A stretch of 48,025 bases of DNA from UHGV virus genome UHGV-0268865. The stretch is one strand, 5' to 3'. The notes beneath the pieces are model-generated. The model saw only the letters and a program-made list of their open reading frames with translations, was not told the origin of the DNA and did no database searches. The position numbers and the translations under genes are program-made. The number at the start of each line of letters is the position of its first letter. Position 1 is the first letter of the stretch. Shown here piece by piece: positions 33,000 to 48,008 of the stretch. The DNA comes from a virus.

Positions 33000-33075
33000 T
33001 GGTGCTGATTGACGGAATCGAACCGCCGGCATCCTGCTTACAAGGCAGGCGCTCTACCTGCTGAGCTAAATCAGC
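33000..33075 (-). tRNA. tRNA-Thr (anticodon UGU), phage-encoded, in the late operon
   Basis: Manual cloverleaf: acceptor GCTGATT/AATCAGC, D-stem GCTC/GAGC with G18G19, anticodon stem CCTGC/GCAGG, loop CTTGTAA, T-arm GGCGG-TTCGATT-CCGTC, A73, encoded CCA; 76 nt. Confidence 0.7.
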
Positions 33076-39944: not shown

Positions 39945-40720
39945 TGAATCAGCCCTTTTTCTTTGCCAATCAGGTATTCGTCCCGCAGCCACTGAGCCGG
40001 GGTTAGCGCGCCGAGTGATGCGGCACTTGGCATGCAGCCAAAGCTTTTGCCTTCCGGGTGATAACCGCGCTGCCTGCTGGCGTGGTTTGTGGGGATCACT
40101 TCCTGGTTGTTCTCCAGAGCCAGTACCGGCGACGGTATTTGTTCTCCGGCGGCGACTTTCAGCGCCCAGTCTTCCAGCTTTTTAGCAGCGTATTTCTCGG
40201 TTTCTGCCTCGCTGAGCTGGCGCTGGTACATTGCTCGCCGGGTATCGGTAACAACCCAGTACATGACAGGGTGAGACCACGGGAAGCGCTCAGCACCGCC
40301 GGTATGCAGCCCTTTTTCACGGCTGTAGCGGTGGAACTCGTTCATCACGTCGACAAGAGTCACGCCGAGCACAGTGCCGCTATCCTTGCACCACTTGATG
40401 AACTGGCCCGGCGATGGCCAGAACGGCGATTCGCTGGCTCTCGCATGTCGCACGCCGGCGGATAACTGCTCGCGGGTGCGGATCCCGTTTTCGGCAAAAG
40501 CGGCAATCCACTGGCGCTTCGCTGTCTTCTCTTCGGCGTCGGTCCGCAGGTTAGTCTGGGTAGATGCCGGGAAGATCTGCTTCAGCTGACGGAACAGAGA
40601 GTCAACCAGCCTTTCAGCTTCGAAATCGAGAAGCCGCTGTGGCTCCGTACGCCCTGCAGCCATTCTGGCCAGCGCATCACCATCGCGATTGCTGATCGCG
40701 GTCATAAGCTGTGCGGTCAT
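39941..40720 (-). CDS. P: Replication protein P-like (helicase loader)
   Basis: 259 aa immediately after the O-like gene; similar to the lambda P family. Confidence 0.65.
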   Translation of the reverse strand: MTAQLMTAISNRDGDALARMAAGRTEPQRLLDFEAERLVDSLFRQLKQIFPASTQTNLRTDAEEKTAKRQWIAAFAENGIRTREQLSAGVRHARASESPFWPSPGQFIKWCKDSGTVLGVTLVDVMNEFHRYSREKGLHTGGAERFPWSHPVMYWVVTDTRRAMYQRQLSEAETEKYAAKKLEDWALKVAAGEQIPSPVLALENNQEVIPTNHASRQRGYHPEGKSFGCMPSAASLGALTPAQWLRDEYLIGKEKGLIQ

Positions 40721-41451
40721 ATGAAGTCCTTCCAGCCTTCAGGGCTGTTCCAGTGTGGGGAATCAGGTTCGCTTCTCTGGCGCCCGGAAAGCGGATTAAC
40801 TCTCGCGTTCCTGAGCCATACCCGGAATGCCGAGTTCCAGTCGATCAGCTTTGTGCCGCGTGCCTGGTGATAATCACGAAAGTTCAGCAACTCGGTTTCA
40901 ATGTTGATCCCTTTCCCCGAGGCAATCGCAATGTGATCTGCCGATGGCTTGAAGGCAGGAGGGAAAGGTATCTCCCCGTTGGGTGAAATCCCGATCCGTC
41001 GCTTTGCAGCCTCGCTGATAAACTGCCCTCGCGCAGAGAGAGAGTCTGGTTCAGTGACTGGTTCAAAAGAGTGACTGGTTCTGGTGCCATCTGGTGGCAT
41101 AGGGGGTGTGCCATCAGATGGCATAGGGGGTGCTATTTCATGGCATACCCCTGTGCTTTTTGGTGGCATATGGGTGGCATCAAGGTTCAGATAATACACG
41201 TTGGATGTATTACCTTTCCCGTTGTTGACCCCAACGCGATTTTCACGCTTGAGCAGCCCCATATCCTCAAGCGCATCAATATGGTTGCGAACAGCGGATT
41301 TGCTGCATTCGCACTGATCGGCAATGTGTTGATAAGAAGGCCAGCATTCGCCCTTGTCATTGGCGTTGTCGGCCAGCTTGATAAGAACGAGCTTACGCAG
41401 TGAGTTTCCCACTTTGACCCCCATTGCTTTCGCCATAAGTGACATGCTCAC
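40717..41451 (-). CDS. O: Replication initiator O-like (N-terminal HTH, C-terminal DnaT-like), with internal iterons
   Basis: N-terminal HTH; Pro/His-rich linker encoded by the iterons; basic C-terminal region. Confidence 0.65.
   Translation of the reverse strand: MSMSLMAKAMGVKVGNSLRKLVLIKLADNANDKGECWPSYQHIADQCECSKSAVRNHIDALEDMGLLKRENRVGVNNGKGNTSNVYYLNLDATHMPPKSTGVCHEIAPPMPSDGTPPMPPDGTRTSHSFEPVTEPDSLSARGQFISEAAKRRIGISPNGEIPFPPAFKPSADHIAIASGKGINIETELLNFRDYHQARGTKLIDWNSAFRVWLRNARVNPLSGRQRSEPDSPHWNSPEGWKDFI
41054..41185. repeat. Iteron cluster inside the O-like gene (putative ori)
   Basis: TGGCATAGGGGGTG x2, TGGCATACCCCTGTG, TGGTGGCATATGGGTGGCAT, and GTGACTGGTTC x2; followed by the inverted repeat TAATACA-N7-TGTATTA. 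Confidence 0.5.
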
Positions 41452-41507
41452 GTGCTACCTCCGGATTGTTTACTCTTACAGATTTACCAGGCATAATTAC
41501 CTCGCAA

Positions 41508-42083
41508 TTACCTCTTCGTTTTTGCACCTGAAAGCCGTTGGTGTTCGAGCACCGCGGCTTTCCCTTCAAATCCAACATATCCTTCGTGCATTCTTTGCTT
41601 CGCAGCCAGATAGCAATTAATGGCCTCCTGTTTATCCAGAAATTCACCCAGTTGAATCATTCGTCCGCTCACTGATATGCGCGCAGCCCACTTCCCTGTT
41701 TTCTTGTTCTGCAGAATCCCAGGGTGCCCACTGGTGTTATGTTTTGGTTTTCTGGAGTTCTGCATGTTTACCGCATGAGTAACCAGGCGAAGATTGCTCC
41801 ATTTGTTGTCAGAGCGATTTCCGTTGATATGGTCAACCTCTAGGTCGCCAGGTGGCAGCTCACCAGTCATGAAGTAAAACGCCAACCTATGCGCCTGAAA
41901 TCCCATACCAAACATCATGATGCGCACATAACCTTGCTTATTAACGGTTCCGGCCTCATCACCCACCTTGAAGCGGTGACCGATTACTCTTATCCGGCTA
42001 AATTCGCCCGTCTCAGGGTCATATTTCAAAAATTCCGGTATGCGTTTTAAGTTTTGCTCTGAAAAGTTCTTAATTGCCCTCAT
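41508..42083 (-). CDS. HNH endonuclease with an AP2-like DNA-binding domain
   Basis: HRLAFYFMTG...LEVDHINGNRSDNKWSNLRLVTHAVN is an HNH_3 motif; the C-terminal region is AP2-like. Confidence 0.8.
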   Translation of the reverse strand: MRAIKNFSEQNLKRIPEFLKYDPETGEFSRIRVIGHRFKVGDEAGTVNKQGYVRIMMFGMGFQAHRLAFYFMTGELPPGDLEVDHINGNRSDNKWSNLRLVTHAVNMQNSRKPKHNTSGHPGILQNKKTGKWAARISVSGRMIQLGEFLDKQEAINCYLAAKQRMHEGYVGFEGKAAVLEHQRLSGAKTKR

Positions 42084-42301
42084 GCCTCAAAATCCCCCTT
42101 TTCTCCCGTTCGGTTAGAAATCAGGATGGCCAGAAGCAACGACATGTTCGGCAGCAGGCTTTCCCGCCAGCGACTTACCGTTGACTTATTCACTCCGGCC
42201 ACTTTGGCGATATTCGTGGTTCCCAGTTCTGCTATCTGGCTGTGCAACCAGCTTTCAATTCTCCTGGCCTCCACTTTGTTGCGTGTTGTTGAACTCTCCA
42301 T
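42080..42301 (-). CDS. cII: CII-like transcriptional activator
   Basis: RIESWLHSQIAELGTTNIAKVAGVNKSTVSRWRESLLPNMSLLLAIL is collinear with lambda CII; start placed at MESSTT with a GAGGAAG RBS. Confidence 0.75.
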   Translation of the reverse strand: MESSTTRNKVEARRIESWLHSQIAELGTTNIAKVAGVNKSTVSRWRESLLPNMSLLLAILISNRTGEKGDFEA

Positions 42302-42341
42302 TTGTGATACTTCCTCTGGTGTTGATTGGAATGGCCGCCAG

Positions 42342-42572
42342 TCAGGCGGCATTAGCTTTTGTTGGCGGCGGAAACAAATCAGGAAGATCAGGGCGAATTT
42401 CATGCGCCTTAACCTTACCGCCGGTTGCGCTGACTATGGCTTTAACTTTTTCTGGTGAAACTAAGCCACCATTTAGCCACTTATGAACCGCAGGCTGACT
42501 TACGCCACAGATATCGGCGAGGCGCTGTTGACTGCCAACGATTTTCAAAGCTCGTTGAATAACTTTATTCAT
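42342..42572 (-). CDS. cro: Cro-like HTH repressor
   Basis: HTH (QQRLADICGVSQPAVHKWL); divergent from cI across the operators; AGGTGA RBS before the ATG at 42572. Confidence 0.7.
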   Translation of the reverse strand: MNKVIQRALKIVGSQQRLADICGVSQPAVHKWLNGGLVSPEKVKAIVSATGGKVKAHEIRPDLPDLFPPPTKANAA

Positions 42573-42608
42573 GGATTTCACCTATCCGATTACTGGATTA
42601 ATGAGAAG

Positions 42609-42671
42609 ATAACTCAAGTTATGATATTTGTCCATAACCTTTGTTATTTTACGAAACATAACCTTGGTTAT
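42609..42671. promoter_or_regulatory. oR: three 14-bp palindromic operators with consensus ATAACC-N2-GGTTAT
   Basis: ATAACTcaAGTTAT (42609-22), ATAACCttTGTTAT (42634-47), ATAACCttGGTTAT (42658-71); 24-25 bp centre-to-centre. Confidence 0.6.
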
Positions 42672-42682
42672 ATATTTGCCGT

Positions 42683-43375
42683 ATGAAAACATTTGCAGAA
42701 AGACTGAATGCAGCCATGATTGCCGCTGGCGTTTCTCAAGGTCAGTTAGCTGAAATGGTTGGGGTATCACAGCCAGCAATCCAGAAAATGACTTCTGGAA
42801 AAACTAATGGCAGCCGAAAAATGGTTGAGCTCGCTAACGCGCTTGGTGTTAGACCTGAATGGCTTTCATCTGGTCAAGGGGCAATGCGGGAAGACGGACA
42901 GCAGCCTCAATCGCAGTTGACTAAAACTGGTGATTCAGATGTGTTCCGATTGGACGTGCTGGATCTGACGGTAAGCGCCGGCCCTGGCATCATTAATCAG
43001 GAATTCGTTGAAATTTTGCATTCCGTCGAGTACGCGCCAGCTGAAGCACGCCACATGTTCGATGGGCGCAAGTCCGAGAATATCCGGATCATTAACGTCC
43101 GCGGCGACAGCATGTCGGGCACGATTGAGCCTGGTGATCTGCTGTTCGTAGATATCAGCGTTAAGAGCTTCGACGGCGACGGTATTTACGCGTTCCTGTA
43201 CGACGATACGGCACATGTTAAGCGCCTGCAGAAGATGAAAGACAAGCTGCTGGTTATCTCAGACAACAAGATTTATACGCCATGGGACCCGATCGAGAAA
43301 GACGAGATGAACCGGGTGTTCGTGTTCGGCAAGGTGATTGGCAGTATGCCGCAGACTTACCGTAAACACGGTTGA
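42683..43375 (+). CDS. cI: CI-like repressor (N-terminal HTH plus C-terminal S24 LexA-like autopeptidase)
   Basis: HTH QGQLAEMVGVSQPAIQKM; S24 motifs GDSMSGTIEPGDLLFVD and the catalytic K in AHVKRL. Confidence 0.9.
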   Translation: MKTFAERLNAAMIAAGVSQGQLAEMVGVSQPAIQKMTSGKTNGSRKMVELANALGVRPEWLSSGQGAMREDGQQPQSQLTKTGDSDVFRLDVLDLTVSAGPGIINQEFVEILHSVEYAPAEARHMFDGRKSENIRIINVRGDSMSGTIEPGDLLFVDISVKSFDGDGIYAFLYDDTAHVKRLQKMKDKLLVISDNKIYTPWDPIEKDEMNRVFVFGKVIGSMPQTYRKHG

Positions 43376-43395
43376 TACAGCAAGGAGTGCAGTTC

Positions 43396-43839
43396 ATGAT
43401 TGAAGAAAAAATTCTTATCCTCTATCCCACGCTAGTCCAGGCGGGGCTTGCCATAACAGCCTATATGGCTCCAACGCCACTTATAACAGTAGGTAGCTTT
43501 GATTCTCCCTTGTCTTTTTATATAACTATGGCTGTTTTCCTAGATTCATCAAAAGAGTATGTAACTACCCTTGACGTTAAGCATAACGGTGATTCAGTTT
43601 TAGACTCGAACGCAAACAATGACGAAAATCATTCGCAAAATTTTATGTTCACAAAACCTGATGAGAACAGTCTCCTTGTTGGAACTCAGTTGCATCTAAA
43701 AGGAGTTAAGCCTACAACCCCAGGTACATATGACATAACTTTGGAGTTATTTGAAATAGATGAACAAAGCAGGCAGCATTTGGTTGATGAAAAGACTTGC
43801 TCTATAGTAATCGTTAAAACAACGTTGAGGGATCAATAG
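43396..43839 (+). CDS. AT-rich moron gene X: membrane protein with a hydrophobic N-terminus and a soluble C-terminal domain (rexA position)
   Basis: AAGGAG RBS 8 nt before the ATG; sits directly downstream of the cI stop; visibly AT-rich. Confidence 0.5.
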   Translation: MIEEKILILYPTLVQAGLAITAYMAPTPLITVGSFDSPLSFYITMAVFLDSSKEYVTTLDVKHNGDSVLDSNANNDENHSQNFMFTKPDENSLLVGTQLHLKGVKPTTPGTYDITLELFEIDEQSRQHLVDEKTCSIVIVKTTLRDQ

Positions 43840-44141
43840 TGACAGCAAGGATGTACAAGCTGAGGCCTGAAGATGAAGAACGAATCCCTCAACCACATAA
43901 TAATGATGATGGAGGGGGCGGAGGAGACGATATGCTTCAGAGAGTGAAAGAACTTGAAAACAAAGTCGCAACCCTTGTAACCGATGTTGCAATCATCAAA
44001 GACAAGCTAGCTTCCAAGGAAGATATTCAGTCAGTAAAGACAGAGCTACATAAGGAGTTGAATGCTCAAACATGGAAAATCATTACAGCTATAGTGATAA
44101 CCGTGTTACTAGCTGTTTTTTCTAAATATTTCATTAAATAA
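43839..44141 (+). CDS. AT-rich moron gene Y: acidic/Gly-rich N-terminus, coiled coil, C-terminal TM anchor (XhlA-like architecture)
   Basis: GTG start overlapping the X stop, with a GAGGGA RBS; C-terminal IITAIVITVLLAVFSKYFIK helix. Confidence 0.45.
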   Translation: MTARMYKLRPEDEERIPQPHNNDDGGGGGDDMLQRVKELENKVATLVTDVAIIKDKLASKEDIQSVKTELHKELNAQTWKIITAIVITVLLAVFSKYFIK

Positions 44142-44165
44142 CCCGGCCACCGATCCGGGTTTTTA
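44141..44165 (+). terminator. Rho-independent terminator ending the cI-X-Y operon
   Basis: CCCGG-CCACCGAT-CCGGG followed by TTTTT. Confidence 0.55.
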
Positions 44166-44387
44166 ATGCCCCTTCCTTGCGAACTCCGCCGCATCACGCA
44201 GCAACCCCTTGTGAATGACATTGCCTACAGAGCGTCGCTTTGCCTCCAGCCGTTCGACAATAGCGTCACGGTCAATTGTCGCGCCGTCGATTATCAACTC
44301 AACAACAGCCCCGCTGATTTCGCCAGCGATAAATGCTGCACGGTCTTCCAGTAACTCATCCCGTTCCATATCCATACCCAGCCCCAT
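44163..44387 (-). CDS. Small hypothetical protein (74 aa) transcribed from the oL region toward cI
   Basis: GAGGGAAAGG RBS before the ATG at 44387. Confidence 0.4.
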   Translation of the reverse strand: MGLGMDMERDELLEDRAAFIAGEISGAVVELIIDGATIDRDAIVERLEAKRRSVGNVIHKGLLRDAAEFARKGH

Positions 44388-44440
44388 AACCTTTCCCTCA
44401 CTGATGTTTTTTTGAGCATAACAGCACGCTTTACAAAAAT

Positions 44441-44530
44441 AAATAACCTTCTCAATCATAAATTTATAACTTATTTCGTTAATATTATAATTTAGGTTAT
44501 TGCCATAAACCATAACTAAGGTTATCTTTA
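44441..44530. promoter_or_regulatory. oL operators plus a pL-like promoter
   Basis: ATAACTaaGGTTAT (44512-25) and ATAATTtaGGTTAT (44487-500) match the oR consensus; -35 TTGCCA (44500-05), 17 bp, -10 TATCTT (44523-28) on the plus strand. Confidence 0.5.
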
Positions 44531-44607
44531 ACTCATCCAAACAACACCGGCAACGCCGGGGTGAAGTCAAAACGTCCCGTTAGCCGCGATAAGGCAAAGG
44601 TGAAGAG

Positions 44608-44715
44608 ATGATCCGAGAAGAAGACAGGCCTGCATGGCGTAATTTTTGGTTAAAGGTCGTTCCGTTTTTGGTTGCTGTCCTTTTTTTTAGCTTCGCATGC
44701 TGGGGTGGAAAATGA
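44608..44715 (+). CDS. Small hydrophobic peptide (35 aa)
   Basis: First ORF after pL; ATGA-coupled to the next ORF. Confidence 0.35.
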   Translation: MIREEDRPAWRNFWLKVVPFLVAVLFFSFACWGGK

Positions 44716-44822
44716 GCAAACAAGGCATTCGTTCACTGATTTACTGCCTGCTGATCTGCGGTGTTATCTGGTCAGCGTTGATTATCAAAATTCTGCACGT
44801 TACGGGGGTGTTCAATGGCTAA
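44712..44822 (+). CDS. Small hydrophobic peptide (36 aa)
   Basis: Single TM helix; ATGA-coupled; overlaps the start of the next ORF. Confidence 0.35.
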   Translation: MSKQGIRSLIYCLLICGVIWSALIIKILHVTGVFNG

Positions 44823-45009
44823 ATCAATTCCTAACAGCGGACGCGCCGTGATGATGCGCAATAGCCGCACCGGCGCAGCCTGGCTGGTCAGCTTCGACTA
44901 TCGCGACGGCAGCTACTGGCATGAGCCGCAGGGTAATCTGCGCCACATCCGCCGGCCATACGCTTCACGCAGCATTGAGCCGAACCTGGTTCCAGCCGGG
45001 ACGCATTAA
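44815..45009 (+). CDS. Small Arg-rich protein (64 aa)
   Basis: Start lies inside the end of the preceding mini-ORF. Confidence 0.4.
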   Translation: MAKSIPNSGRAVMMRNSRTGAAWLVSFDYRDGSYWHEPQGNLRHIRRPYASRSIEPNLVPAGTH

Positions 45010-45096
45010 CCGCGCATATCAGCGCAAGAATTTAACTGAGCTATCAGGCAGCCAATACGGTGCCGGGCGTTTCACAACCAAATTTCAGGGGAAACC

Positions 45097-46101
45097 ATGA
45101 GCGAAATAATGGATTTAACCGTCATCGAAATAAAACCAGAACAGGCACCGACCCTGTACCGGGCTGGCGGTCTTGACGCTTACCTGGAGCAGATTCGCCA
45201 GGCCGTGAACGAGGTTCCGGACCTGACCACCAAGAAAGGTCGTGACCGTGTCGCTTCTCTCGCGGCGCAGGTATCACGCAGCAAGACGGCAATCGAGAAG
45301 CCGGGTCGCGAGTACCTGAAACGCCTTAAAGAGGCTGTGCGCCCTGCTGAGGCGGAAATTAAGCGGTTTGTTGATGCATGTGACGAGCTGCGCGATGCGA
45401 CACGTAAGCCGCTGACCGAATGGGAAGCTGAGCAGGAACGCATTAAAGCCGAAGAAGCCATGATCGCGCTGCACGCCGAAGCGCTGGGGATGAACGAAGA
45501 GTTCGACCTCCAGCGTGCCGCGCAGATCGAAGCAGACCACGAAATGGCCCTGCTGATGGATAAAGATATTGACCGCGAACGCGCAGATAAAGCAGCCGAA
45601 GCAGAACGCCAGCGCATTGCCCGCGAAGAAGAGATTAAGCGTCAGGCGGAAGAGAAAGCCAAACGTGAAGCAGCAGAAAAGGCACAGCGTGAAATTGACG
45701 CTGCGGCTGCCAGAGAGCGCGAGGCGATTTTGGCAAAAGAGCGCGCAGAACGTGAGCGCATTGAAGCTCAGCAGCGGGCCGAACGCGAACAGCGAGAAGC
45801 TGCTGAACGTGCTGAGCGTGAAAAGCAGGCCGCCGTGGAAGCAGAACGCCGCAAAGCTCAGGAAGAAGCCGATCGCATCCGCCGCGAGGCAGAGCAGCGC
45901 GAACAGGCCCGCCTGGCTGAGGAGAAGCGTAAAGCCGATGAGCAGGCGCGCCGCGAAGCCGACGTTAAGCACCGCAAGGCTGTAGGCACGGAAATCGTCA
46001 AAGCTCTTCTGGCCAATACCAGCTTAACCCGCGATCAGGCGATTGAAGTCCTGACTGCGATTAAAGACGGAAAAATCCCACATACCGGGATCAGCTACTG
46101 A
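45097..46101 (+). CDS. Coiled-coil protein with a highly charged ERA/ERE repeat region
   Basis: 334 aa; low-complexity AERE-rich central region; sits upstream of gam in the recombination module. Confidence 0.5.
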
Positions 46102-46108
46102 GGTGTTT

Positions 46109-46405
46109 ATGGCGGCTTATCACTTTCAGGACCGGATTGAAGAGCAATCCTGGAACCAGCATTACCAGAAGCTGGCGCGCGAAGAGAAAGAATCTGAGCT
46201 CGCGGATGACATGGAGAAAGGTCTCCCTCTCCGTCTGCTGGAATCGCTGTGCATCGACGAACTTCAACGCCGCGGCGCCAGCAAACAGGCGATTAGCCGC
46301 GCATTCGACGATGACGTGGGTTTTCAAGATCGGATGGCAGCTAACGTCCGCTACATGGTTGAAGTTATCGCCAGGCATCAACTCAACATTGAAGAGGAGC
46401 AATAA
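46109..46405 (+). CDS. gam: Host-nuclease inhibitor Gam (GamS-length)
   Basis: [36 protein letters not shown]...[13 protein letters not shown] is collinear with lambda Gam; ATG at 46109 with a GAGGTG RBS. Confidence 0.85.
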
Positions 46406-47331
46406 TGGCTACTCAACTCATCGAACAGGTATTTAGCCTAGTAAATCCACTAAAGGCTGAATTTGAGCAGGTTTGCTCTGAACCTTCTATCAATTTCAGG
46501 CGTGAATCTGAGTTCGCAATGCAGATTTTCGCCAATAACGACTACCTGGCTAAAGTCGCCATCGGCAATCCGGTTAGCACCAGAAGTGCAGTAATGAATG
46601 TTGCCGGGATCGGCGTGTCCCTTAATCCGGCTCAGAAGCTGGCTTATCTGGTGCCACGCAAAGGGGCTATCTGTCTCGACATCAGCTACATGGGCCTGAT
46701 GCATATCGCACAGCAATCCGGGGCTATCAAGTGGTGCCAGTCGGCAATTGTTCGTAAGAACGATCAGTTTCACCGTGAAGGTCTGGATAAGCCACCGGTT
46801 CATATTTACAACGATTTCGACACCGCAGAACAGCGCGGCGACATTGTAGGTGCCTACGTCGTTATCAAAAGCGACGATGGCGACTACCTGACTCACACGA
46901 TGCGCATTGCTGATATCTACGCGATCCGAGATCGCTCAGAAGCATGGAAAGCCTACAAGAATAAAGGAACATCGTGCCCGTGGGTCACAGACGAAGAGCA
47001 GATGATCCTCAAGACGGTTGTTAAACAGGCTGCGAAATATTGGCCTCGCCGTGAGCGCCTGGATGCGGCAATTGACCACGTGAACACCGAAAGCGAAGAA
47101 GGTATTAACTTTTCAGCACAACGCCAGCCAGAACGCGATGTTACCCCGGCAGAAACAGCAATCATCAAAGAGATTAACGACGTTCTTATCGCGATGAATA
47201 AGACATGGGATGACGACCTGCTGCCCCTGTGTTCAAAAATATTCCGCCGTGACATTCGTGAATCATCAGAACTGACTCAAGAAGAGGCGGTTAAGGCTCT
47301 CGGATTTCTGAAAAATAAGGCGGCCGCATGA
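46405..47331 (+). CDS. recT: RecT-family single-strand annealing recombinase
   Basis: 308 aa between gam and exo; resembles the RecT/Red-beta superfamily. Confidence 0.7.
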
Positions 47332-48008
47332 CACCTGAAATCATCCTTGCGCGCACCGGTATTGACGTTACCCGCGTTGAACAGGGCGATGAAGCTTGGC
47401 ACCGCTTGCGCCTTGGCGTCATAACCGCCTCAGAAGTTCACAACGTCATTTCAAAACCGAGATCTGGCACAAAGTGGACTGACATGAAAATGTCCTATTT
47501 CCACACGCTACTCGCAGAGGTTTGCACCGGTGCGGCACCGGAAGTTAACGCCAAGGCGCTGGCCTGGGGGAAACAGTACGAGGACGACGCTCGTACCCTG
47601 TTTGAGTTCACCACTGACGTGAAAGTCACCGAGTCGCCGATCCTCTTCCGCGACGAAGGAATGCGCACCGCCTGCTCACCTGACGGCCTGTGCAGTGATG
47701 GTCGCGGCCTTGAGCTGAAGTGCCCTTTCACCTCTCGCGACTTCATGAAATTCCGGCTTGGCGGCTTCGAGGCTATCAAATCTGCTTACATGGCCCAGGT
47801 GCAATTCAGCATGTGGGTAACCGGAAAGGATGCCTGGTATTTCGCGAATTATGACCCTCGCATGAAGCGAGAAGGCATCCTCCACGTGGTTGTTGAGCGC
47901 GACGACAAATACATGTCCGACTTCAACGAAATGGTGCCGGAGTTCATCAAGAAGATGGACGAATCGCTGGCGGAGATCGGCTTCACCTTCGGGGAACAGT
48001 GGAAATGA
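47328..48008 (+). CDS. exo: Lambda-type exonuclease (Red-alpha / YqaJ)
   Basis: Near-identical to lambda Exo over the full length (MTPxIILxRTGIDV...[15 protein letters not shown]...[33 protein letters not shown]). Confidence 0.95.

What the first reader, a model, noticed from the sequence alone, without database searches (positions are those of the whole stretch)
43396..44165. AT-rich two-gene membrane module co-transcribed with the CI repressor in the rexAB position: candidate new exclusion or abortive-infection system
Two genes sit immediately downstream of the cI stop codon, in the same orientation, and end in a strong terminator. This is the position of lambda rexA-rexB, which would place them in the lysogen together with the repressor. 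Both are visibly AT-rich compared with the rest of the phage, which suggests horizontal acquisition. Neither resembles RexA/RexB or SieB. X is 147 aa with a hydrophobic N-terminal 45 aa and a soluble beta-rich C-domain. Y is 100 aa with an acidic/poly-Gly N-terminus (DDGGGGGDD), a coiled coil and a single C-terminal TM anchor. That tail-anchored topology recalls XhlA-like membrane-disrupting proteins. A sensor plus membrane-effector pair at the prophage immunity locus is the classic layout of phage-encoded exclusion systems.
Basis: partly seen in the sequence, partly recalled or inferred. Interest (0 to 1): 0.85.

Follow-up and report, generated by a model that had tools for sequence, protein, structure and literature searches.

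The report
Prophage two-gene module behind the repressor
Right after the repressor gene of this Klebsiella-type lambdoid prophage sits a conserved but uncharacterised gene pair, a soluble beta-sandwich protein and a tail-anchored coiled-coil membrane protein; comparative genomics makes it a good but untested candidate for a new phage-exclusion system.

Summary
cI (42683-43375) is followed after 20 nt by X (43396-43839) and the overlapping Y (43839-44141). A strong hairpin terminator follows, and all of this lies between the OR and OL operators. GC is 0.39 against 0.52 for the window.

One correction: X is not a membrane protein. It models as a cytoplasmic Ig-like beta-sandwich. Only Y has a transmembrane (TM) helix, at its extreme C-terminus.

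The pair is not unique. In 74 of 77 related loci the order is repressor, X-like, Y. This includes Salmonella phage epsilon34 gp45/gp44, whose rex-like position was noted in 2008.

Y belongs to a large unnamed family, with 916 representatives in an exhaustive profile search. Its layout is a variable N-tail, a poly-Gly hinge, a coiled coil and a C-terminal TM helix. It resembles XhlA in architecture but fails XhlA's thresholds.

X and the Y N-tail form one swappable unit: 17 X types match 18 tail types with no discordant pair. The roughly 230-bp Y core and its terminator stay 88-97% identical.

Distant members sit downstream of Mnt/Arc-type repressors, which is the P22 sieA position. Some use an unrelated Zn-ribbon partner instead of X.

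There are no hits to RexA/B, SieB or PADLOC models. The function is untested. The best reading is a lysogen-expressed exclusion module with a variable specificity part and a conserved membrane part.

The parts
42610..42670 (.). Three OR-type operators (TAACCnnnGGTTA-like) between cro and cI
   Evidence: sites at 42610, 42635 and 42659; 20 matches in the window against 5.1 expected
42648..42676 (+). PRM-like promoter (TTTACG-17-TATATT) ending 6 nt before the cI ATG, which would give a near-leaderless cI mRNA
   Evidence: consensus match only; function inferred
42683..43375 (+). cI repressor (HTH_3 + Peptidase_S24), first gene of the operon
   Evidence: S24 2.3e-17, HTH_3 6.6e-9; phrog_4, 3.6e-68
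43383..43388 (+). Shine-Dalgarno AAGGAG for X
   Evidence: read directly from the sequence
43396..43839 (+). X: 147-aa cytoplasmic Ig-like beta-sandwich protein; the variable (specificity) partner
43839..43904 (+). Y N-terminal variable tail (aa 1-22), which always travels with the X type
   Evidence: Mantel r = 0.86; 17 X types against 18 tail types; 0 discordant pairs of 780
43905..43931 (+). Y acidic/poly-Gly hinge DDGGGGGDD (aa 23-31); the recombination boundary
   Evidence: DNA identity to other modules jumps from about 45% to 88-97% here; the G-rich motif followed by D-M is a family signature.
43932..44072 (+). Y conserved coiled coil (aa 32-78; ML.RV..LE ... ATKED ... LHKELNAQT)
   Evidence: The epsilon34 type lacks exactly one heptad, IQSVKTE. 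PDB profile hits are coiled coils only.
44073..44141 (+). Y C-terminal transmembrane tail anchor (WKIITAIVITVLLAVFS) followed by KYFIK and the stop codon
   Evidence: Kyte-Doolittle 19-residue window of 2.1-2.65 at the extreme C-terminus in all members
44140..44165 (.). Rho-independent terminator (ACCCGG-N8-CCGGGT + U5), flanked by an A-run, so probably bidirectional; part of the conserved cassette
   Evidence: -15.2 kcal/mol, z -3.8; hairpin plus T-run conserved in 31 of 39 distinct loci
44488..44524 (.). Two OL-type operators that close the immunity region; a PL-like promoter lies at 44463-44491

Best explanation
X-Y is a lysogen-expressed accessory module of the prophage immunity operon. 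It most likely protects the lysogen against other phages.

Shown here:
- The pair is transcriptionally placed behind cI, inside the OR-OL immunity region, and ends at its own terminator.
- X and Y are translationally coupled.
- X is a soluble cytoplasmic beta-sandwich.
- Y is a tail-anchored inner-membrane protein whose bulk (tail, Gly hinge, coiled coil) faces the cytoplasm.
- X and the first 20-45 residues of Y are inherited as one hypervariable unit.
- The Gly hinge, coiled coil, TM helix and terminator form a nearly invariant cassette shared by many X types.

Inferred:
- X docks on the variable N-tail of Y, and together they form the specificity part. This part either recognises a component of an invading phage or is the part that phages evolve to escape.
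- The conserved coiled-coil and TM core is the membrane-acting part.
- My favoured mechanism is Rex-like or XhlA-like. In the resting lysogen, X holds Y in an inert state. Binding of a phage product changes the X-tail complex, and Y oligomerises through its coiled coil. Y then either perturbs the inner membrane itself or cooperates with the invader's holin. The result would be loss of membrane potential or premature lysis before progeny are made (abortive infection).
- A non-lethal block of DNA entry at the inner membrane is the close alternative, listed as a rival.
For: Position and operon structure.

Conserved synteny. The order repressor, X-like, Y holds in 74 of 77 loci from Klebsiella, Enterobacter, Salmonella, Serratia, Cronobacter, Edwardsiella and Pantoea prophages and from IMG/VR contigs. 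The same X/Y pair occurs with up to 4 different repressor alleles and with different replication and recombination modules.

Second lysogen-type location. An X-family protein plus a Y-like protein sit behind an Arc/Mnt-type repressor next to an antirepressor (L085-87). A Y-like gene sits behind mnt in the P22-like phage UPF_BP1. That is the neighbourhood of sieA in P22 (PMC10883804).

Modular design.
- DNA identity jumps at the poly-Gly codons.
- X identity tracks tail identity: r = 0.86, partial r = 0.85 controlling for the core.
- X types and tail types correspond one to one, while core types are shuffled against X types.
- An unrelated Zn-ribbon partner replaces X in L025 and L088.

Purifying selection acts on both genes.

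The cI-N interval is a recognised hotspot that holds rexAB and bstA and is highly transcribed in lysogens (PMC8585504).

Architectural and weak sequence similarity of Y to XhlA-type holin partners:
- PHROG 'hemolysin' and holin hits at E 0.003-0.01.
- 17 of 79 distant members hit Pfam XhlA, best E 1e-6.
- hhalign probability 23%, E 9e-4.
- XhlA and SPP1 gp24.1 are harmless alone and kill together with a 2-TM holin (PMC6316719).
Against: - There are no functional data of any kind. Expression in lysogens, toxicity, X-Y binding and phage exclusion are all untested.
- PADLOC-DB v2 gives no hit. This is expected for a new family, but it also means no support by homology.
- The X fold is a generic Ig-like sandwich with no informative neighbour.
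- The X-tail co-inheritance could be mere physical linkage of adjacent DNA.
- The XhlA link is below every curated threshold and is partly driven by coiled-coil composition.
- In one locus (L072) X is frameshifted while Y is intact. That argues against Y being a constitutive toxin held in check by X, though it may be a sequencing error or a decaying prophage.
Confidence: 0.45

Rival explanations
1. Non-lethal superinfection exclusion. Y tethers X (or an X-Y complex) to the cytoplasmic face of the inner membrane, where it blocks DNA translocation or the ejection proteins of incoming phages, as P22 SieA does. The cell is not killed.
For: Y-like genes occupy the mnt-adjacent (sieA) position in UPF_BP1 and in L085-87. 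Y is membrane-anchored. Hypervariable X plus tail fits recognition of variable ejection or tape-measure proteins. A frameshifted X beside an intact Y is tolerated.
Against: Almost all of Y and all of X face the cytoplasm, and only about 5 residues can reach the periplasm. Most known injection blockers act from the periplasmic side (own knowledge: T4 Imm, HK97 gp15, Ltp). A mere anchor would not need a core conserved at 86-97% identity with invariant charged residues.
Confidence: 0.2
2. The module serves the prophage's own life cycle. It could be a modulator of the lysogeny-to-lysis switch, as proposed for RexA/RexB, or an XhlA-like accessory holin that tunes the phage's own lysis timing.
For: Lambda RexAB are reported to assist the transition to lytic growth (cited in PMC12315714). 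Y has XhlA-like architecture.
Against: The pair is far from any lysis cassette, sits in the repressor operon and is insulated by its own terminator. In Bacillus phages XhlA genes lie next to the holin and endolysin genes, which is not the case here. The same module combines with many repressor alleles and many phage backbones, so it is not tied to one regulatory circuit. Cassette-like hypervariability of X is unusual for a housekeeping phage function.
Confidence: 0.12
3. Lysogenic conversion unrelated to phages. A membrane-associated pair would alter host envelope physiology, stress tolerance or virulence, by analogy with tail-anchored ElaB/YqjD-type proteins.
For: Tail-anchored topology and a size of about 100 aa. 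An AT-rich moron in a lysogen-expressed operon. No defence-database hit.
Against: No similarity to ElaB/DUF883 or to any host family. The family is found only in prophage regulatory operons in every context examined. Swappable specificity cassettes are typical of conflict systems.
Confidence: 0.13
4. Addiction or toxin-antitoxin-like pair that stabilises the prophage. Y would be a membrane toxin, in the manner of Hok or TisB, and X its protein antidote.
For: Two small translationally coupled genes, with a single-TM small protein as the distal gene.
Against: L072 keeps Y with a broken X. XhlA-type proteins are not toxic alone (PMC6316719). The pair has no own autoregulated promoter evident. The antitoxin-first, toxin-second order fits, but a TA pair does not explain the one-to-one diversification of X with the Y tail alongside an invariant core.
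Confidence: 0.07

Closest known systems
Lambda RexA/RexB (abortive infection, cI-rexA-rexB operon from PRM)
   Same: Same genomic slot: immediately downstream of cI, same strand, inside the immunity region, terminator before OL/PL. Same two-gene logic of a soluble cytoplasmic protein followed by an inner-membrane protein. Both are AT-rich morons.
   Different: No sequence or profile similarity. RexA is a 279-aa DNA-binding protein (own knowledge), whereas X is a 147-aa Ig-like sandwich. RexB is a polytopic 4-TM protein (own knowledge), whereas Y has one C-terminal TM helix and a cytoplasmic coiled coil. X-Y shows a cassette-like variable/conserved split that is not described for Rex.
Salmonella phage epsilon34 gp45/gp44 (also g341c and NM-3)
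   Same: True homologues. Y is 52% identical to gp44 (E 2e-30). X is 24% identical to gp45 (E 1e-4; joined by the family profile). The layout behind the repressor is identical. The epsilon34 genome paper already calls them rexAB-like in position (PMC2629481).
   Different: A different X type and a different Y tail. The epsilon34 Y core lacks one heptad and its terminator has decayed. No function is known for either.
XhlA / SPP1 gp24.1 (Pfam PF10779), accessory holin of Bacillus phages
   Same: Length of about 80-100 aa, an N-terminal coiled coil, a single extreme C-terminal TM helix, and a juxtamembrane ..L.K....(N/Q)TW motif. Sub-threshold profile links. Some database entries of Y homologues are labelled 'hemolysin XhlA'.
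   Different: Below Pfam's gathering score in every case seen. Y has an extra variable tail and poly-Gly hinge. Y is encoded in a repressor operon with a soluble partner, not in a lysis cassette beside a 2-TM holin and an endolysin.
P22 SieA and the mnt-adjacent immI accessory locus
   Same: Distant Y-family members with a small partner lie directly downstream of mnt/arc-type repressors. This is the neighbourhood of sieA in P22. Both are inner-membrane and lysogen-expressed.
   Different: No similarity to superinfection-exclusion PHROGs was detected. SieA is a single larger polytopic protein (own knowledge). The window's copy is at the cI locus, not at immI.
Mycobacteriophage Sbash gp30/gp31 and Butters gp30/gp31; S. 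aureus PdpSau
   Same: Prophage-encoded, repressor-adjacent defence made of a cytoplasmic protein plus a membrane protein, or of a single membrane-anchored Abi protein (PMC7542560 and PMC10127798, titles and abstracts seen; details from own knowledge).
   Different: Unrelated proteins in Gram-positive or mycobacterial hosts. Their membrane components are polytopic or N-terminally anchored.

Membership tests
RexAB | Sequence or profile homology to RexA and RexB | tested here: not met
   No Rex family among the Pfam, PHROG or PADLOC hits for X or Y at E <= 1
RexAB | Two genes immediately downstream of cI, same strand, inside the immunity region, ending at a terminator | tested here: met
RexAB | Polytopic (4-TM) membrane component | tested here: not met
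   Y has one C-terminal hydrophobic segment only
RexAB | Abortive infection with loss of membrane potential on superinfection | not testable with these tools
   needs experiments
XhlA (PF10779) | Match to the Pfam model at or above the gathering score (34.7 bits) | tested here: not met
   Window Y has no hit at E <= 1. One of 26 close relatives hits at E 0.13. Among 79 distant members, 17 hit below threshold, best E 9.7e-7; the two scores inspected were 22.9 and 20.2 bits.
XhlA (PF10779) | Profile-profile similarity to bona fide XhlA proteins | tested here: inconclusive
   hhalign probability 6% (A3 vs A5) and 23%, E 8.8e-4 over 54 columns (A6 vs A5)
XhlA (PF10779) | About 80-100 aa, N-terminal coiled coil, single C-terminal TM helix | tested here: met
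XhlA (PF10779) | Encoded in a lysis cassette next to a 2-TM holin and an endolysin | tested here: not met
   Y lies in the cI operon. Bacillus XhlA genes lie beside holin and endolysin genes.
SieB (PF14163) / superinfection-exclusion PHROGs | Profile match | tested here: not met
   No such family. SieB is present elsewhere in some related prophages (L020, L021), so it is a separate gene.
Known defence systems (PADLOC-DB v2.0) | Any component HMM match | tested here: not met
   0 families for X and for Y at E <= 1
phrog_6324 (unknown function) | Profile match over most of the protein | tested here: met
   Y residues 20-100 match profile positions 19-94 of 94, E 4.8e-30
Type II-like toxin-antitoxin pair | Distal gene product lethal unless the proximal one is present | tested here: inconclusive
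   One natural locus has a frameshifted X and an intact Y (L072). No expression data.

The most novel reading that the evidence does not exclude
Y would define a large, unnamed family of tail-anchored, XhlA-like 'co-holin' effectors that temperate phages keep in the membrane of the lysogen. They sit at both classical exclusion loci, behind cI/C2 and behind Mnt. Each is armed by a swappable cytoplasmic sensor (beta-sandwich X, a Zn-ribbon protein, or others) that docks on the variable N-tail through a poly-Gly hinge. On sensing an invader, the conserved core would cooperate with the invader's own holin, or self-assemble, to lyse or depolarise the cell prematurely. That would be a new, modular class of abortive-infection system. 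It would also give a mechanistic bridge between phage lysis proteins and anti-phage defence.
Probability: 0.17. Interest if true: 0.85.

Novelty: new variant of a known kind. Interest (0 to 1): 0.62.

Why it matters
The interval between cI and N is where rexAB and bstA were found. Sixty years on, Rex is still mechanistically unclear. This analysis gives an unrelated, much smaller two-gene module in the same slot.

The module is widespread. Hundreds of Klebsiella, Enterobacter, Salmonella, Cronobacter and Serratia prophages carry it, and the Y superfamily has 916 representatives at 50% identity. It is absent from the one defence database that could be searched here (PADLOC-DB v2.0).

Its architecture divides cleanly. 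There are 17 or more interchangeable X-plus-tail specificity cassettes on one nearly invariant coiled-coil and TM core. That makes it an unusually tractable system for asking how a cytoplasmic sensor controls a membrane effector, because natural chimeras already exist.

It also bears on phage therapy against Klebsiella and Enterobacter, where such prophage modules could limit host range. If it turns out not to be a defence system, it is still the commonest unexplained cargo of the immunity operon in these genera.

Tried and rejected
- Pfam, NCBIfam and PADLOC scans of X and Y gave nothing significant. RFX5, KCNQ, DUF4709 and Inhibitor_I71 are low-scoring composition hits and were rejected.
- The PDB sequence search found only designed or GCN4 coiled coils for Y and nothing for X.
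- Single-sequence AlphaFold of X was useless (pLDDT 42). The run with a 44-sequence alignment gave a usable model.
- A double-glycine bacteriocin leader was considered for the poly-Gly motif. I rejected it because the segment before the glycines is hypervariable rather than a conserved leader, and because the downstream part is a membrane anchor.
- The small convergent ORF (44163-44387) was considered as a third component. I rejected it because it is present in only 26 of 77 loci and also occurs beside unrelated cargo in HK225.
- Rfam found no RNA family in 41000-46000.
- Positive selection on X was tested. Within-type dN/dS is 0.18, so the diversity comes from old cassettes rather than ongoing fast evolution.
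- The search for related loci on species-representative genomes gave only 5 loci. The Bacillota and Uhrbacteria contigs (L022, L026) look like contamination and a spurious partial hit.
- Literature searches found no functional study of the family.
Full report
**What is in the window.** The window is a Klebsiella-type lambdoid temperate phage. Its structural half is about 92% identical to Klebsiella phages such as ST15-VIM1phi2.1. In the orientation given, cro (42342-42581) is on the minus strand. cI (42683-43375) is on the plus strand and carries HTH_3 and Peptidase_S24. Between them lie three operator-like sites, TAACCnnnGGTTA, at 42610, 42635 and 42659. Two more lie at 44488 and 44513 (20 matches in the window against 5.1 expected). 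The immunity region therefore runs from about 42610 to about 44525.

Inside this region, 20 nt after the cI stop, X starts at ATG 43396 behind an AAGGAG Shine-Dalgarno and ends at TAG 43837-43839. Y starts at GTG 43839, overlapping that stop in TAGTG, and ends at 44141. A hairpin at 44140-44161 plus U5 follows directly, at -15.2 kcal/mol and z = -3.8. The consensus scan found no other plus-strand terminator between cI and that hairpin. It did find a PRM-like promoter ending 6 nt before the cI ATG. GC is 0.389 over X-Y against 0.523 for the window.

Y is as described: a variable tail (aa 1-22), DDGGGGGDD (aa 23-31), a coiled coil, and a very hydrophobic segment at residues 79-95 followed by KYFIK. 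It is a tail-anchored inner-membrane protein with nearly all of its mass in the cytoplasm.

**The pair is a conserved, mobile module.**
- Y matches phrog_6324, of unknown function, at E 4.8e-30.
- Y has 90 clusters of relatives in Enterobacterales.
- X looked almost orphan in a single-sequence search, with 3 clusters. The genes upstream of Y homologues nevertheless align with X as one very divergent family. A profile search then recovered 47 clusters.
- In phage records the only hits are Salmonella phages epsilon34, g341c and NM-3. There the order is repressor gp46, gp45 (X-like), gp44 (Y-like).
- Across 77 loci gathered from assemblies, species-representative genomes and IMG/VR, 74 show the order repressor-like ORF, X-like, Y on one strand. 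Most repressors carry the S24 GxSM motif; some are short HTH-only proteins.
- The same X/Y pair is found with up to four different repressor alleles and with different replication and recombination modules. It is therefore an autonomous mosaic unit.
- It is AT-rich (0.37-0.41) in every host background (0.43-0.54).
- Within-type dN/dS is 0.18 for X, 0.10 for the Y core and 0.45 for the Y tail. Both genes are real and under purifying selection.

**A variable part and a constant part.**
- DNA identity between the window and modules carrying other X types is at noise level (about 40-50%) through cI, X and the first 22 codons of Y. It jumps to 88-97% exactly at the poly-Gly codons (about 43913) and stays high through the Y stop and the terminator. 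It falls back to noise after about 44150.
- The terminator hairpin ACCCGGCCACCGnGCCGGGTTTTT is conserved in 31 of 39 distinct downstream sequences.
- Over 40 distinct X/Y pairs, X identity correlates with Y-tail identity at Mantel r = 0.86. The partial r controlling for the core is 0.85. X identity correlates with Y-core identity at only r = 0.36.
- Clustering gives 17 X types and 18 tail types in essentially one-to-one correspondence. None of 780 pairs is discordant.
- Core types are shuffled against X types. One core type carries ten X types, and one X type occurs with three core types.
- Recombination breakpoints thus fall inside gene Y, at the Gly hinge, rather than at the X/Y gene boundary, where mosaic joints usually lie. 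Physical linkage alone could produce some of this. The complete absence of joints at the gene boundary is the best available argument that X and the Y tail work together, most simply by X binding the tail.
- The epsilon34-type core differs from the window's by deletion of exactly seven residues, IQSVKTE. That is one heptad, which supports a genuine coiled coil.

**The wider Y family and its contexts.** An exhaustive HMMER search with the Y profile found 916 cluster representatives at E <= 1e-3 and 140 at E <= 1e-10. These proteins are about 90-125 aa with the same plan:
- a variable tail;
- a G-rich motif ending in D-M;
- xxR[VI]xxLE;
- a coiled coil with ..D.AVIKSNYATKxD;
- a juxtamembrane QTWK or NSIIxWVV;
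- a C-terminal TM helix.

Contexts of distant members keep the same logic.
- L085-87: an Arc/Mnt-type ribbon-helix-helix repressor, then an X-family protein (E 2.7e-11 to the X profile), then a Y-like protein. This sits next to an ORF6N antirepressor and near the tape-measure gene.
- P22-like Salmonella phage UPF_BP1: mnt, then a 94-aa ORF, then a Y-like 149-aa ORF, between arc-ant and gene 16. In P22 this is where sieA and orf59a lie next to mnt (PMC10883804).
- L088 and L025: the gene before Y is an unrelated Zn-ribbon protein (CxxCG...CxNCGH). The two are homologous to each other at E 2e-9.
- L084: the gene before Y is an 85-aa helical protein, downstream of an S24 protein.

The Y family is therefore consistently the last gene of an operon headed by a lysogeny-type repressor. 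It is preceded by a translationally coupled partner of variable type.

**Comparison with known families.**
- RexA, RexB, SieB and all PADLOC-DB v2 models give no hit. NCBIfam gives nothing.
- Some database entries call Y homologues 'hemolysin XhlA', so I tested that label.
- The window's Y does not hit Pfam XhlA at E <= 1. One of 26 close relatives hits at E 0.13.
- Seventeen of 79 distant family members hit it, best E 9.7e-7. The two scores I inspected (22.9 and 20.2 bits) are below the 34.7-bit gathering score and sit among many coiled-coil families.
- hhalign against an alignment of bona fide XhlA proteins (SPP1 gp24.1 and relatives) gives probability 6% with the close family. With the wide family it gives 23%, E 8.8e-4 over 54 columns. 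The aligned juxtamembrane motif is I-x-x-V-x-x-x-L-x-K-x-x-x-(N/Q)-T-W.
- XhlA-type genes sit in lysis cassettes beside a holin and an endolysin. Y does not.
- My conclusion is that Y works from an XhlA-like architecture and may be a remote relative, but membership is not established.
- It is relevant to mechanism that XhlA and SPP1 gp24.1 are harmless alone and kill only together with a two-TM holin (PMC6316719).

**Most likely function.** The cI-N interval is a recognised hotspot of mosaic diversity that holds rexAB and bstA, and the cI promoter is among the most active in lysogens (PMC8585504). Four lines of evidence point towards a lysogen-expressed phage-exclusion module:
- X-Y sits in that slot.
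- Its relatives sit in the other classical lysogen-expressed exclusion slot, behind mnt.
- It shows the variable-specificity, constant-effector design typical of conflict systems.
- It pairs a cytoplasmic binder with a membrane protein.

I favour an abortive-infection-type mechanism. X bound to the Y tail would sense a phage product. The coiled-coil and TM core would then oligomerise and either depolarise the membrane or cooperate with the invader's holin to lyse the cell early. All steps after 'X and the Y tail are one unit' are inference.

The main rival is a non-lethal SieA-like block of DNA entry. Lesser rivals are a role in the phage's own induction or lysis, phage-unrelated lysogenic conversion, and a TA-like addiction pair. 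One locus with a frameshifted X and an intact Y (L072) argues weakly against Y being constitutively toxic.

**Novelty and score.** The positional analogy was published for epsilon34 in 2008. I found no functional study and no defence-database model. Four things are new here:
- X is a soluble beta-sandwich.
- The family is large, with a defined signature.
- X and the Y tail form a swappable cassette on a conserved Gly-hinge, coiled-coil, TM and terminator core.
- The family also occupies the mnt/sieA slot and uses alternative partners.

In kind it is a new variant of a known type of system: a repressor-linked, prophage-encoded pair of a soluble protein and a membrane protein. It is a well-founded candidate, but its function is untested, so I score interest at 0.62.

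The X-Y DNA, and even the conserved Y core, have no match in 5,426 complete E. coli genomes. This is despite their abundance in sister genera, and I cannot explain it.

Noticed in passing
window 44163-44387 (-): A 74-aa acidic ORF (phrog_3975, E 4.5e-33) is convergent with Y and shares the probably bidirectional terminator. It lies between the module and OL/PL. It is present in 26 of 77 related loci and also in coliphage HK225 beside unrelated rex-position cargo (HK97 gp48/49-like). It is therefore a separate small gene of unknown function.
   Followed up: partly
L089 2102-2839 (Salmonella phage UPF_BP1); L085 2327-3369: Y-family genes with a small upstream partner lie directly downstream of Mnt/Arc-type repressors in immI-like regions. 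This is the slot that holds sieA in P22.
   Followed up: partly
L025 3092-3442; L088 2559-3008: A Zn-ribbon protein (CxxCG...CxNCGH, 116-149 aa) replaces the beta-sandwich X as the gene translationally coupled to Y. The two are homologous to each other (blastp E 2e-9). This is a second partner family.
   Followed up: partly
L072 2997-3490: X is split by a frameshift while Y and the downstream small ORF are intact. This could be a natural X-null variant or a sequencing error.
   Followed up: no
window 41508-42083 (-): An HNH_3 + AP2-domain homing-type endonuclease gene (phrog_99, E 3.7e-59) is inserted between cII (42080-42403) and the replication gene (40717-41451).
   Followed up: no
window 33000-33075 (-): tRNA-Thr (anticodon TGT), the only tRNA in the window.
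   Followed up: no
window 45097-46101 (+): A 334-aa extremely charged (E/R/A/K-rich) protein is the first large ORF after the PL-like promoter, upstream of a 100-aa ORF, RecT (46405-47331) and a YqaJ exonuclease (47328-48008). No N-like gene was recognised between PL and it.
   Followed up: no
window 43376-44165: Neither the whole module nor the conserved Y core has any DNA match in 5,426 complete E. coli genomes, even in distant blastn mode. The module is common in Klebsiella, Enterobacter, Salmonella, Cronobacter and Serratia prophages.
   Followed up: partly
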